Positions 11,280-17,639 of a stretch of DNA of 64,000 nucleotides are shown here, in pieces. The notes under the pieces are model-generated. The model made no database searches. It saw only the letters and a program-made list of their open reading frames with translations, and had not been told where the DNA came from. The DNA lies in NCBI RefSeq assembly GCF_050920415.1, contig NZ_CP169309.1; one strand, 5' to 3'. This DNA comes from Escherichia coli. Its GTDB lineage: Bacteria > Pseudomonadota > Gammaproteobacteria > Enterobacterales > Enterobacteriaceae. The translations under genes and the position numbers were made by a program. The first letter of the stretch is position 1. Each line of letters opens with the position of its first letter.

Positions 11280-12722
11280 ATGGCAATGGACTTACGTAAT
11301 CCTGATGTATGGCTTGCACACCTGCTGGAAAACCTGCCGGAAGATAAGCGGTCCGCCGCGCTTGATGATGGCAATGCAGACTGGGAGTTTATCGACAGCG
11401 AAATCGTCAAGCTCGGCTCGCTGGCGCACAGCCAGCTCGATATCCCGGAACTTCAGCGCCGGGGCCTGATGCTTCTGGCCTCAGAAACCAAAGATTTTCG
11501 CCTGCTGGCCCACCTGCTGCGTACCCTGCAACATGCCGGTGATATTCTGCTGGCCACCAGGATGCTGGCACAATATACAGAACACTACTGGACATGCGCC
11601 GCACCGCAGAACATGGCCCACAAAAAACGCTTTGCCGCCCAGGTGATAAAACGCTTTGAGTCTGCCGTTCAGGACTTTGCCGGGAATGCTGCGACAATAC
11701 AGCGCGATGCTTTGCTGGGAGAGCTGGCAAAACTGGCACAGTGCTGGCAGGCGCACAACGCGCCTGAGCTGGCTAAGGCGACAGACGATTTATTTGCCCT
11801 GTTTCAGCGCGCGTTTCGTGATGTAGCGCCTGAAATGCCATCATCTGCACGAACCGCCGCCATTGCGCCGCAGGCCACAGCCGGATCTGTACCGGATATG
11901 TCACCGCACACGGTTGCCGCTCAGCCTCCTGTTGCAGCCACTCCAATCCCGCAGGTCACTGTTGACAGCCACGACGATAAAGCATGGCGCGACACCCTGC
12001 TGAAGGTGGCCGCCATTCTCTGTGAGCGCCAGCCGGAGTCACCGCAGGGTTACCGACTGCGCCGCCATGCTCTGTGGCAGACCATCACCAGTCCCCCGCA
12101 GGCAGAAAGCGATGGCCGGACCCCACTGGCAGCCTTCCCTGTCGATATGATGGATGATTACCTGGCGCGGCTGAACAATGCCGACATGGCGCTGTGGCAG
12201 CAGGTGGAAAAAAGCCTGCTGCTGGCCCCGTACTGGCTGGACGGCCATTACCTCTCAGCACAGACCGCGTTGCGCCTTGGTTATATACAGGTGGCGGATG
12301 CTATCCGTGATGAAGTTACCAGTTTTCTTGCTCGCCTGCCCGCACTGCTCAACATGTTGTTTAACGACCGCACTCCGTTTGTGTCCGAACAGACGAAACA
12401 GTGGCTGGCATCATCGGGCTCAGGCAACCAAACCGCAGCAGCTGTACAGACCGATGAAGAATTACAGGCGGCCAGGGCGTGCTTCGATGAGAACGGGCTG
12501 GAAACCGCGCTGCGGTATCTGGAAAACCTGCCCGAAGGTGATCCCCGTAACCAGTTTCATCGCCAATTTTTCGGCGCGCAGTTACTGGAAGAAGCCGGTA
12601 TGGTTCAGCTTGCACAACAGCAGTACCGGATGCTCTTCAGAACAGGATTACACATGATGCTGTCCGAATGGGAACCGTCCCTGCTGGAAGCTCTGGAACA
12701 AAAATTCACGGCAGAACAGTAA
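11280..12722 (+). CDS. tssA: T6SS protein TssA (ImpA N-terminal domain; VasJ-like)
   Basis: The listed ORF (11214) overlaps vasI; the in-frame ATG at 11280 lies 4 nt after the vasI stop. 480 aa; ImpA_N-like N-terminus (DWEFIDSEIVKLGSLAHSQLDIPELQRRGLMLLASETKDFRLLAHLL), Pro/Ala linker. Confidence 0.85.
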   Translation: MAMDLRNPDVWLAHLLENLPEDKRSAALDDGNADWEFIDSEIVKLGSLAHSQLDIPELQRRGLMLLASETKDFRLLAHLLRTLQHAGDILLATRMLAQYTEHYWTCAAPQNMAHKKRFAAQVIKRFESAVQDFAGNAATIQRDALLGELAKLAQCWQAHNAPELAKATDDLFALFQRAFRDVAPEMPSSARTAAIAPQATAGSVPDMSPHTVAAQPPVAATPIPQVTVDSHDDKAWRDTLLKVAAILCERQPESPQGYRLRRHALWQTITSPPQAESDGRTPLAAFPVDMMDDYLARLNNADMALWQQVEKSLLLAPYWLDGHYLSAQTALRLGYIQVADAIRDEVTSFLARLPALLNMLFNDRTPFVSEQTKQWLASSGSGNQTAAAVQTDEELQAARACFDENGLETALRYLENLPEGDPRNQFHRQFFGAQLLEEAGMVQLAQQQYRMLFRTGLHMMLSEWEPSLLEALEQKFTAEQ

Positions 12723-12741
12723 AAGATAACAAGGAGTTACC

Positions 12742-16269: not shown

Positions 16270-16277
16270 GGGGGTTA

Positions 16278-17639
16278 GTGATGAGCAACAATGTACTGAC
16301 ACAAACTATCGTTACCGGCAGCGATCCGCGTACCCTGCCGGAGTTCAGCGCCATCCGCGAAGAAATTAACAAAGCTAACCACCCGTCACAGCCGGAGCTG
16401 AACTGGAAACTAGTGGAATCGCTGGCGCTGTCAATTTTTAAGGCCAACGGGGTGGATTTGCATACCGCCACCTACTATACGCTGGCACGTACACGTAATC
16501 AGGGACTGGCAGGGTTCTGTGAAGGCGCGGAACTGCTAGCTGCGATGATCACCCACGAATGGGATAAATTCTGGCCGCAAAGTGGCCCGGCGAGGACTGA
16601 GATGCTGGACTGGTTCAACACCCGCACCGGGAATATCCTGCGCCAGCAGGTTTCCTTTTCCGAAAATGATCTTTCGTTGCTCTACCGCACGGAACGGGCT
16701 TTGCAGCTTATCTGCGACAAACTCCAGCAGGTGGAACTGAAGCGCCAACCGCGCGTGGAAAATCTGCTTTATTTTGTGCAGAACACACGCAAGCGGTTTG
16801 AGCCGCAGCCCAGAAACCGTACTGCTACGGCGGCACAGACCATGGTCAGAACGCTGGTCTATGCGCCTGAAGGCACGGCTTCCGCCACAGCGGAAACCAT
16901 GCCCCCCCTACCCGACCTGCCGGAAATGCGGGTGGAGGTGCGCGGAGTGGCAGATAACGCCGACAAAGCAAAACAGGGCGACACGGTAAAAGGTTTTGTT
17001 GCCGGTGCCGCCTGTACTGCCGTTATCGCTGCTGCACTCTGGTGGTGGCAGACGTACCCGATGCAGCGGCAGCTTACAAAGGTCAGGGATACCACACAGG
17101 GAGCAGCCACCGTCTGGCTGGCATCACCGGTACTGAAAGAATATGAACAGAACCTGCAACAGCTTCTGAATACCCCACCGCTACAGCCGCTGGAAACCGG
17201 AATGCAGATGATGCGCACCGCAGACACCCTCTGGCCGGAAAGCCTGCAACAGCAGGAAGCCAGCCGGATGTGGAGCACCACGCTGAGAAACCGGGCGCAA
17301 GCCAGTCCGCAGATGAAGGGCTGGCAACAGGCGCGGCAGAATTTGCGGGATTTTGCGGATCTGATGATGAAAAAGGAGACGGAGAAACAGGGTTTCACCC
17401 TCTCGTATATCAAAACGGTGACCTGGCAGGCCGAACGGTTACTGAATCAGGAAACTCCACTGGAGTACATGCTGACGCAGTACCAGGAGACCCGCACGCA
17501 GAATCAGGACACACAAGCGCTAGCAAAAGAGATCAACCAACGGCTGGATGGGCTGTTAAGCCGCTGGCTGTTGCTGAAAAATACCGGACAGGATATGGCA
17601 ACGGACAACAGCACCGTGCCAGTCCCTCCGACCCATTGA
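16278..17639 (+). CDS. T6SS accessory ImpA_N-domain membrane protein (VasL/TagA-like)
   Basis: 453 aa; ImpA_N-like N-terminus (NWKLVESLALSIFKANGVDLHTATYYTLARTRNQGLAGF), one central transmembrane helix (GFVAGAACTAVIAAALWWW), Gln-rich C-terminal domain; sits between tssM and hcp. Start at GTG 16278 or ATG 16281. Confidence 0.75.
   Translation: MMSNNVLTQTIVTGSDPRTLPEFSAIREEINKANHPSQPELNWKLVESLALSIFKANGVDLHTATYYTLARTRNQGLAGFCEGAELLAAMITHEWDKFWPQSGPARTEMLDWFNTRTGNILRQQVSFSENDLSLLYRTERALQLICDKLQQVELKRQPRVENLLYFVQNTRKRFEPQPRNRTATAAQTMVRTLVYAPEGTASATAETMPPLPDLPEMRVEVRGVADNADKAKQGDTVKGFVAGAACTAVIAAALWWWQTYPMQRQLTKVRDTTQGAATVWLASPVLKEYEQNLQQLLNTPPLQPLETGMQMMRTADTLWPESLQQQEASRMWSTTLRNRAQASPQMKGWQQARQNLRDFADLMMKKETEKQGFTLSYIKTVTWQAERLLNQETPLEYMLTQYQETRTQNQDTQALAKEINQRLDGLLSRWLLLKNTGQDMATDNSTVPVPPTH

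What the first reader, a model, noticed from the sequence alone, without database searches (positions are those of the whole stretch)
11280..17639. Two ImpA_N-domain paralogues in one operon: TssA and a membrane-anchored VasL-like protein
Both the 11280-12722 product and the 16278-17639 product begin with an ImpA_N-like domain, but the second has a central transmembrane helix and a Gln-rich C-terminal domain. This fits the distinction between a cytoplasmic TssA and a membrane-bound VasL/TagA-like partner thought to act at the far end of the sheath. The C-terminal half of the second protein has no signature I recognise.
Basis: partly seen in the sequence, partly recalled or inferred. Interest (0 to 1): 0.35.

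Follow-up and report, generated by a model that had tools for sequence, protein, structure and literature searches.

The report
Known T6SS pair: TssA and TagA
The two genes are the cap protein (TssA) and the membrane anchor (TagA, also called VasL) of a type VI secretion system on an E. coli chromosome; this pairing is already described and annotated, so the finding is correct but ordinary.

Summary
The window is E. coli chromosome, 100% identical to NZ_CP169399. It carries the T6SS island next to tRNA-Asp and dnaQ, with the gene order tssH-vasI-tssA-tssM-[VasL-domain gene]-hcp.

- **11280-12722** is a canonical long TssA. It has ImpA_N plus VasJ, scores 454 bits on TIGR03362 (cut-off 230), carries a WEP motif at 464-466, and is close to the solved Aeromonas and Vibrio TssA structures.
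- **16281-17639** (the better start is ATG 16281, not GTG 16278) has four parts: ImpA_N (E 1e-19), a disordered linker, a 22-residue apolar segment (aa 235-256), and an all-helical, Gln-rich C-terminal domain.

ImpA_N + hydrophobic segment + VasL is the published definition of TagA/TsmA. The protein aligns end to end (29% identity, E 2e-54) with the characterised TagA of EAEC 042 (EC042_4550).

By homology, it most likely sits in the inner membrane, captures the TssA-capped distal end of the sheath, stops polymerisation and holds the sheath extended. Homologues occur in 3510 of 5426 complete E. coli genomes and are all annotated as VasL-domain proteins.

The only open point is topology. Sequence features across 69 homologues favour a true N-in/C-out transmembrane helix, which would put VasL in the periplasm. 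One paper instead describes TagA as peripherally associated with the membrane.

The parts
10532..11275 (+). vasI, a T6SS-associated accessory gene immediately upstream of tssA
   Evidence: TIGR03360 VasI, E 2.3e-81, 272 bits against a cut-off of 124. RefSeq annotates it as vasI.
11280..12722 (+). tssA, the long (VasJ-type, Class A / TsaC) sheath-cap protein, 480 aa
   Evidence: TIGR03362 scores 453.9 bits against a cut-off of 230.1. Pfam ImpA_N covers aa 30-113 and T6SS_VasJ covers aa 232-475. PDB matches: 6g7b/6g7c (A. hydrophila TssA) E 1.5e-81 and 6riu (V. cholerae TssA) E 4.6e-58. The WEP motif is at aa 464-466.
12742..16269 (+). tssM (vasK / icmF-like), the inner-membrane subunit of the membrane complex. 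RefSeq places the start at 12832.
   Evidence: TIGR03348, E 1.4e-282, 940.7 bits. RefSeq annotation.
16281..17639 (+). tagA (vasL / tsmA-type) gene, 452 aa: ImpA_N, linker, hydrophobic helix, VasL domain
   Evidence: Pfam ImpA_N and VasL both match. It is 29% identical to EAEC TagA over the full length, E 2e-54. RefSeq names it 'VasL domain-containing protein', WP_001355442.1.
16308..16805 (+). N-terminal helical domain (aa 10-175), which contains ImpA_N (aa 12-113); predicted cytoplasmic
   Evidence: AF2 pLDDT is 94-98 over aa 10-170. The only significant Foldseek hit in the PDB is 6hs5, the TssA N-terminal domain (E 1.8e-4). phmmer matches 6rju at E 3.4e-6.
16806..16982 (+). Ala/Thr/Pro/Arg-rich linker (aa 176-234), predicted disordered
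   Evidence: AF2 pLDDT is 41-51 with no secondary structure. Composition.
16983..17048 (+). Apolar segment TVKGFVAGAACTAVIAAALWWW (aa 235-256), the predicted membrane-spanning helix
   Evidence: Kyte-Doolittle 19-residue mean 1.72; summed Hessa scale 1.45 kcal/mol. AF2 builds a helix over aa 236-269. A hydrophobic segment sits at the same relative position (52 +/- 2% of length) in all 69 homologues examined.
17142..17576 (+). VasL domain (PF12486, aa 288-432): Gln-rich and all-helical, with no relative among solved structures
17657..18136 (+). hcp (tssD), the tube protein; last gene of the T6SS island
   Evidence: TIGR03344, E 9.3e-61. RefSeq annotation.

Best explanation
The segment encodes the TssA-TssM-TagA module of the E. 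coli T6SS island next to aspV.

The 11280-12722 product is a long TssA. Its ImpA_N N-terminus contacts the sheath and baseplate, and its VasJ C-terminus oligomerises into the ring that caps the growing distal end of the sheath and tube.

The 16281-17639 product is a TagA (VasL/TsmA) protein. Its ImpA_N domain faces the cytoplasm on a flexible ~60-residue linker, and a single apolar helix ties it to the inner membrane.

[quoted passage not shown] This stops further polymerisation and holds the sheath extended until it contracts. Excess TagA, or TagA without TssA, would inhibit assembly.

Shown here: domain architecture, homology, gene context and predicted structure. Inferred from characterised homologues (EAEC EC042_4550 and V. 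cholerae VCA0121): membrane localisation, TssA binding and the stop-and-hold function.
For: - Architecture: ImpA_N (E 1e-19) plus VasL (E 3.4e-25), with a central hydrophobic segment.
- Definition: TagA is defined as ImpA_N + transmembrane region + VasL PF12486, with VCA0121 and EAEC TagA as representatives (PMC6745524).
- Homology: full-length match to the 455-aa EAEC 042 ORF (29% identity, E 2e-54). That ORF has the same two Pfam domains. It is EC042_4550 by gene count from tssA = EC042_4540.
- Gene order: tssH-vasI-tssA-tssM-vasL-hcp, the same order as the V. cholerae vas genes (PMC5363993).
- Partner: a long VasJ-type TssA with a WEP motif. Long TssA proteins usually co-occur with TagA (PMC7896307).
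- Structure: the AF2 model shows two confident helical domains separated by a disordered linker and a long helix.
- Conservation: the family has 860 representatives at 50% identity with E <= 1e-3. All 69 aligned full-length homologues carry both domains. Homologues are intact in 3239 complete E. coli genomes.
- Function of homologues: tagA deletion gives over-long, bent or detached sheaths, and overexpression blocks assembly (PMC6745524; PMC7545191).
Against: - No experiment on this protein or this E. coli T6SS lineage was found.
- Identity to the characterised TagA proteins is low: 29% to EAEC TagA. V. cholerae VasL was not compared directly.
- Stietz et al. (PMC7545191) report that the distal TssA-TagA contact is not strictly required for termination. 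They also report that TagA binds many T6SS parts and TssM, so 'stopper' may be only part of its role.
- The window protein's own hydrophobic segment is only moderately hydrophobic, and its flanking charges are balanced (3 K/R on each side).
- The related EHEC island is poorly expressed in vitro and repressed by H-NS (PMC5363993).
Confidence: 0.85

Rival explanations
1. The protein acts mainly as a negative regulator or promiscuous chaperone of T6SS assembly, together with TssM and TssA at the initiation site, rather than as a distal-end clamp.
For: In V. cholerae, deleting tagA partly restores sheath assembly in a tssA mutant. TagA binds Hcp, VgrG, TssE/F and TssL/M. TssM overexpression appears to titrate TagA. 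About 10% of TagA foci sit at initiation sites (PMC7545191; PMC6745524). In the window the gene is immediately downstream of tssM.
Against: The same studies still find over-long, bent sheaths in tagA mutants and TagA foci at the distal end. The two roles are not mutually exclusive.
Confidence: 0.3
2. The apolar segment does not span the membrane. [quoted passage not shown]
For: [quoted passage not shown] The EAEC and window segments are among the least hydrophobic in the family (summed Hessa scale 2.42 and 1.45).
Against: Across 69 homologues:
- The apolar run has a median of 22 residues and contains no charged residues.
- The hydrophobic moment is low (0.10), so the helix is not amphipathic.
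- The Kyte-Doolittle mean is at least 1.6 in 63 of 69.
- K/R residues are enriched on the N-terminal flank in 53 homologues and on the C-terminal flank in 2.

A 19-22 residue run is too short for a re-entrant hairpin. These are predictions only, and the 69 sequences are related, so the sign test overstates the support.
Confidence: 0.45
3. The 16281 product is a second, alternative TssA cap subunit, a functional duplicate of the 11280 product.
For: Both have ImpA_N, and TIGR03362 (TssA) matches aa 12-214 at E 2e-24.
Against: It scores 86 bits against the TIGR03362 cut-off of 230. It has no VasJ or other ring-forming C-terminal domain and no WEP motif. Instead it has a membrane segment and a VasL domain. 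BLASTP finds no similarity to the TssA of the same operon.
Confidence: 0.03

Closest known systems
TagA of enteroaggregative E. coli 042 (EC042_4550; Santin et al. 2018, cited in PMC6745524 and PMC6730261)
   Same: Same length (455 vs 452 aa). Same order of ImpA_N, linker, hydrophobic segment and VasL. 29% identity across the whole protein, E 2e-54. Associated with a T6SS that has a long VasJ-type TssA.
   Different: It belongs to a different T6SS (the Sci-1 cluster on the pheU island) and is encoded five genes beyond the end of that cluster rather than between tssM and hcp. The sequences are 71% divergent.
VasL / TagA(VC) / TsmA of Vibrio cholerae (VCA0121; PMC6745524, PMC7545191)
   Same: Same gene position, tssA(vasJ)-tssM(vasK)-tagA(vasL), in a cluster with the same overall order. 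The Pfam family VasL PF12486, named after VasL, matches at E 3.4e-25. The window's TssA is closer to V. cholerae and Aeromonas TssA than to EAEC TssA.
   Different: No direct sequence comparison was made, because the V. cholerae sequence was not retrieved. PMC7896307 treats the V. cholerae form ('TagAV') as a separate subtype from E. coli TagA.
Long TssA (Class A / TsaC): A. hydrophila AHA1844 (PDB 6g7b, 6g7c) and V. cholerae VCA0119 (PDB 6riu)
   Same: The 11280-12722 product matches these at E 1.5e-81 and 4.6e-58 over nearly its full length. It has ImpA_N, VasJ and the WEP motif.
   Different: Nothing notable. It is an ordinary orthologue.

Membership tests
TagA / TsmA (Class B ImpA_N proteins) | N-terminal ImpA_N domain (PF06812) | tested here: met
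   Pfam E 1e-19, aa 13-114. Foldseek hit to the TssA N-terminal domain 6hs5, E 1.8e-4.
TagA / TsmA (Class B ImpA_N proteins) | Central hydrophobic / transmembrane region | tested here: met
   Prediction only. Apolar run at aa 235-256, Kyte-Doolittle mean 1.72. AF2 builds a helix over aa 236-269. A hydrophobic segment sits at the same relative position in all 69 homologues.
TagA / TsmA (Class B ImpA_N proteins) | C-terminal VasL domain (PF12486) | tested here: met
   E 3.4e-25, model positions 1-146 of 147. All 69 aligned homologues also match.
TagA / TsmA (Class B ImpA_N proteins) | Sequence homology to an experimentally characterised TagA | tested here: met
   EAEC 042 EC042_4550: 29% identity, E 2e-54, aa 12-432 aligned with aa 9-449. 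V. cholerae VCA0121 was not compared directly.
TagA / TsmA (Class B ImpA_N proteins) | Encoded with a T6SS that has a long (VasJ-type) TssA | tested here: met
   tssA at 11280-12722 lies in the same co-oriented gene run.
TagA / TsmA (Class B ImpA_N proteins) | Membrane localisation; binding to TssA; recruitment to the distal sheath end; over-long, bent sheaths when deleted | not testable with these tools
   Known only for the EAEC and V. cholerae homologues (PMC6745524; PMC7545191).
TssA, long form (Class A / TsaC): the 11280-12722 product | ImpA_N plus a C-terminal VasJ domain (PF16989), and a score above the NCBIfam TssA cut-off | tested here: met
   ImpA_N E 4.4e-6 and VasJ E 3e-73. TIGR03362 scores 453.9 bits against a cut-off of 230.1.
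TssA, long form (Class A / TsaC): the 11280-12722 product | WEP motif in the C-terminal oligomerisation domain | tested here: met
   W464-E465-P466. The motif is described for Class A TssA in PMC6745524.
TssA (any class): the 16281-17639 product | Full-length match to a TssA model, or a ring-forming C-terminal domain | tested here: not met
   TIGR03362 scores 86.4 bits (cut-off 230.1) and TIGR03363 scores 39.4 bits (cut-off 160.85). Both match the N-terminal part only. There is no VasJ domain.

The most novel reading that the evidence does not exclude
The VasL domain may be periplasmic. In that case TagA-family proteins are true bitopic inner-membrane proteins (ImpA_N inside, VasL outside), not peripheral or cytoplasmic ones. 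The unexplained, structurally orphan VasL domain could then fix the anchor to something in the envelope, such as peptidoglycan, the periplasmic part of TssM, or TssJ. It could also sense the envelope at the site where the sheath lands.
Probability: 0.45. Interest if true: 0.35.

Novelty: already known. Interest (0 to 1): 0.12.

Why it matters
It matters little beyond correct annotation. The segment is a textbook tssA-tssM-tagA module of a widespread E. coli T6SS island. It is identical to a RefSeq genome and already labelled 'VasL domain-containing protein'.

Three minor points have some value:
1. The aspV-island TagA of E. coli has apparently not been studied directly, although homologues are present in about 65% of complete E. 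coli genomes, in two divergent lineages.
2. The VasL domain still has no solved structure, no fold relative and no assigned role.
3. Its side of the membrane is unresolved, and sequence statistics here point to the periplasm.

Tried and rejected
- **Direct comparison of the two window proteins.** BLASTP gave nothing. hhalign of the TagA family profile against TssA aligned the correct regions but was not significant (E 0.36). The shared domain is therefore supported only by the Pfam and NCBIfam profiles.
- **PADLOC scan** of the protein, EAEC TagA and the neighbouring lipoprotein ORF: no hits. This library was not the right one for the question.
- **The Santin et al. 2018 paper** is not held in the library, so its fractionation data could only be taken second-hand.
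- **Retrieving V. cholerae VasL** through cluster names: the ten representatives looked up were unnamed or from Enterobacterales/Orbales genera (Moellerella, Pantoea, Utexia, Phytobacter, Rouxiella, Morganella), none from Vibrio. The expensive genome-collection scan was not spent on this.
- **Second TssA.** Considered and rejected (see rival explanations).
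Full report
**What the window is.** A megablast of 11000-18200 finds a 100% identical stretch in the chromosome of E. coli strain MFDS1022581 (NZ_CP169399), and matches in 3326 of 5426 complete E. coli genomes. The RefSeq annotation of that stretch gives the gene order tssB-tssC-tssE-tssF-tssG-tagH-tssJ-tssK-tssL(icmH)-tssH-vasI-tssA-tssM-'VasL domain-containing protein'-hcp. This is followed by a hypothetical gene, tRNA-Asp, dnaQ and rnhA. It is therefore the T6SS island next to aspV. For EHEC, this island is described as homologous in content and order to the V. 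cholerae vas cluster (PMC5363993). The island has 55-59% G+C, against 47-53% in the flanking core genome.

**Checking the observation.** Both ORFs are present.
- The 11280-12722 product (480 aa) is a full-length TssA. TIGR03362 scores 453.9 bits against a curated cut-off of 230.1. Pfam finds ImpA_N at aa 30-113 and T6SS_VasJ at aa 232-475. The closest solved structures are the A. hydrophila TssA (6g7b/6g7c, E 1.5e-81) and V. cholerae TssA (6riu, E 4.6e-58). It has the WEP motif at 464-466, which PMC6745524 describes for this class.
This is Pfam VasL PF12486 at aa 289-433, covering 146 of 147 model positions at E 3.4e-25.
- Its only strong hydrophobic peak is the run TVKGFVAGAACTAVIAAALWWW (aa 235-256 of the 452-aa form), with a Kyte-Doolittle 19-residue mean of 1.72. 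TssA has no peak above 0.88.
- Gln makes up about 13% of the C-terminal 190 residues and 6% of the N-terminal domain.
- The better start is ATG 16281, which has AGGGGG six bases upstream and is the start RefSeq uses. GTG 16278 is one codon earlier.

**'Paralogues' overstates the relationship.** BLASTP between the two proteins finds nothing. A family-profile comparison aligns the right regions without significance. They share one ancient N-terminal domain, visible through the Pfam and NCBIfam profiles. TIGR03362 matches aa 12-214 of the second protein at E 2e-24, but at 86 bits this is far below the cut-off.

**Anatomy of the second protein.** I built an AlphaFold2 model from a 69-sequence alignment of diverse full-length homologues (A1). 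It has mean pLDDT 82.8 and four regions:
- a very confident helical N-terminal domain (aa 10-175, pLDDT 94-98);
- a disordered Ala/Thr/Pro/Arg-rich linker (aa 176-235, pLDDT 41-51);
- a long helix (aa 236-269) that begins with the apolar run;
- an all-helical C-terminal domain (aa 285-443, pLDDT 84-96).

A separate model of the C-terminal 185 residues agrees, with eight helices and pLDDT 83.9. The only significant PDB fold match of the full model is the N-terminal domain of a Burkholderia TssA (6hs5, E 1.8e-4).

**Family and characterised relatives.**
- The family is large. It has 860 representatives at the 50%-identity level with E <= 1e-3, of which 136 have E <= 1e-30.
- All 69 aligned full-length members carry both ImpA_N and VasL.
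[quoted passage not shown] It names V. cholerae VCA0121 and EAEC TagA as representatives of 'Class B', which it proposes to rename TsmA.
- In EAEC 042 I found an intact 455-aa ORF (NC_017626 4884070-4885437; L002:4071-5438) with the same two Pfam domains and a central hydrophobic segment.
- Counting genes from tssA = EC042_4540 (the number given in PMC6745524) through the Sci-1 cluster places this ORF at EC042_4550, the published TagA.
- The window protein aligns with it from residue 12 to 432 at 29% identity, E 2e-54.
- Homologues occur in three genomic contexts: between tssM and hcp (the window), at the end of a Sci-1-like cluster (L004), and as an orphan between carAB and folA in a Pantoea (L005).

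**How it most likely works (inferred from the homologues).** TssA caps the distal end of the polymerising sheath. When the sheath reaches the opposite membrane, TagA engages the cap, stops polymerisation and holds the sheath extended.
- Without TagA, sheaths keep growing, bend, detach or break (PMC6745524; PMC7896307).
- Without TagA, EAEC retains about 12% of wild-type killing activity (PMC6730261).
- Overproduced TagA sits at the cell periphery and blocks assembly (PMC6745524).
- Stietz et al. add that TagA also binds TssM, Hcp, VgrG and baseplate proteins, inhibits initiation when TssA is missing, and that the distal TssA-TagA contact is not strictly needed for termination (PMC7545191). The 'stopper' picture is therefore incomplete.

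The window module has every sequence-level ingredient for this mechanism: a long VasJ/WEP TssA, TssM, and a TagA with a flexible ~60-residue tether between its ImpA_N domain and the membrane segment. Nothing about localisation, binding or phenotype was or could be tested here.

[quoted passage not shown] PMC6745524 speaks of a 'transmembrane region'. Across the 69 homologues:
- the hydrophobic segment always lies at 52 +/- 2% of the protein length;
- it is an uncharged run with a median of 22 residues;
- the Kyte-Doolittle mean is at least 1.6 in 63 of 69, and the mean hydrophobic moment is low (0.10), so it is not amphipathic;
- it carries on average 2.8 small-xxx-small motifs;
- it has more Lys/Arg in the 15 residues before it than after it in 53 cases, and fewer in 2 (means 3.0 vs 1.4).

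These features fit a genuine N-in/C-out membrane span, which would put the VasL domain in the periplasm. There are three caveats. The sequences are related, so the sign test (p ~1e-13) overstates independence. The window protein's own flanks are balanced (3 vs 3). Its segment and the EAEC one are among the least hydrophobic in the family. I treat this as unresolved, at roughly even odds.

**Distribution.** A blastn of the gene alone finds a homologue in 3510 of 5426 complete E. coli genomes, with a bimodal identity distribution. There are 576 genomes at >= 90% nucleotide identity (the window's lineage), 2933 at about 75% (including O157:H7 and APEC strains), and a single genome in between. The matches in 12 of the 14 sampled rows are annotated solely 'VasL domain-containing protein'; one also overlaps an RHS gene and the weakest falls in a hypothetical protein. 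The commonest E. coli protein allele is 72% identical to the window's (P0045).

**Verdict.** The thing described is an already known and already annotated component pair. That domain has a name, but it still has no structure and no known molecular role.

Noticed in passing
L002:4071-5438 (NC_017626.1 4884070-4885437, E. coli 042): RefSeq annotates the experimentally characterised EAEC tagA (EC042_4550) as three pseudogene fragments: 'ImpA family N-terminal...', 'POTRA domain-containing' and 'VasL domain-containing'. The ORF is in fact intact (455 aa) and has both Pfam domains. This looks like an annotation artefact.
   Followed up: partly
window 18478-19263 (- strand): A 261-aa ORF with a lipoprotein-type signal ([19 protein letters not shown]) sits in a 39% G+C pocket between hcp and tRNA-Asp (19593-19669). 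It has no Pfam or PADLOC match and is 'hypothetical protein' in RefSeq. It may be island cargo or an orphan immunity-like gene.
   Followed up: partly
window 16281-17639 compared with 5426 complete E. coli genomes: The tagA/vasL gene, and the whole island segment, exists in two sharply separated lineages in E. coli. There are 576 genomes at >= 90% nucleotide identity to the window and 2933 at about 75%, with only one genome between 80 and 90%. A UPEC UTI89 protein is 94% identical and an O157:H7 genome sampled carries the ~75% lineage.
   Followed up: partly
L005:7001-8296 (Pantoea sp. 1.19, MRBS01000004.1): An orphan tagA homologue (ImpA_N + VasL) lies between carAB and folA, with no T6SS gene within 7 kb on either side.
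   Followed up: no
proteins P0001-P0003, P0014, P0015, P0039, P0094: Several database proteins are apparent fusions of VasL with Hcp (PF05638) or with TssF (PF05947), 576-629 aa long. They probably reflect frameshifts, read-through or gene-calling errors rather than real fusions.
   Followed up: no
window 12742-12832: The tssM ORF can start at GTG 12742 (1175 aa), but RefSeq starts it at 12832. The TIGR03348 match begins at residue 32 of the long form.
   Followed up: no
window 27816-33400 (approx.): A second tRNA-Asp (27816-27892) is followed by an rRNA operon on the minus strand, with tRNA-Ala and tRNA-Ile in the spacer (31242-31436). This is ordinary core genome.
   Followed up: no
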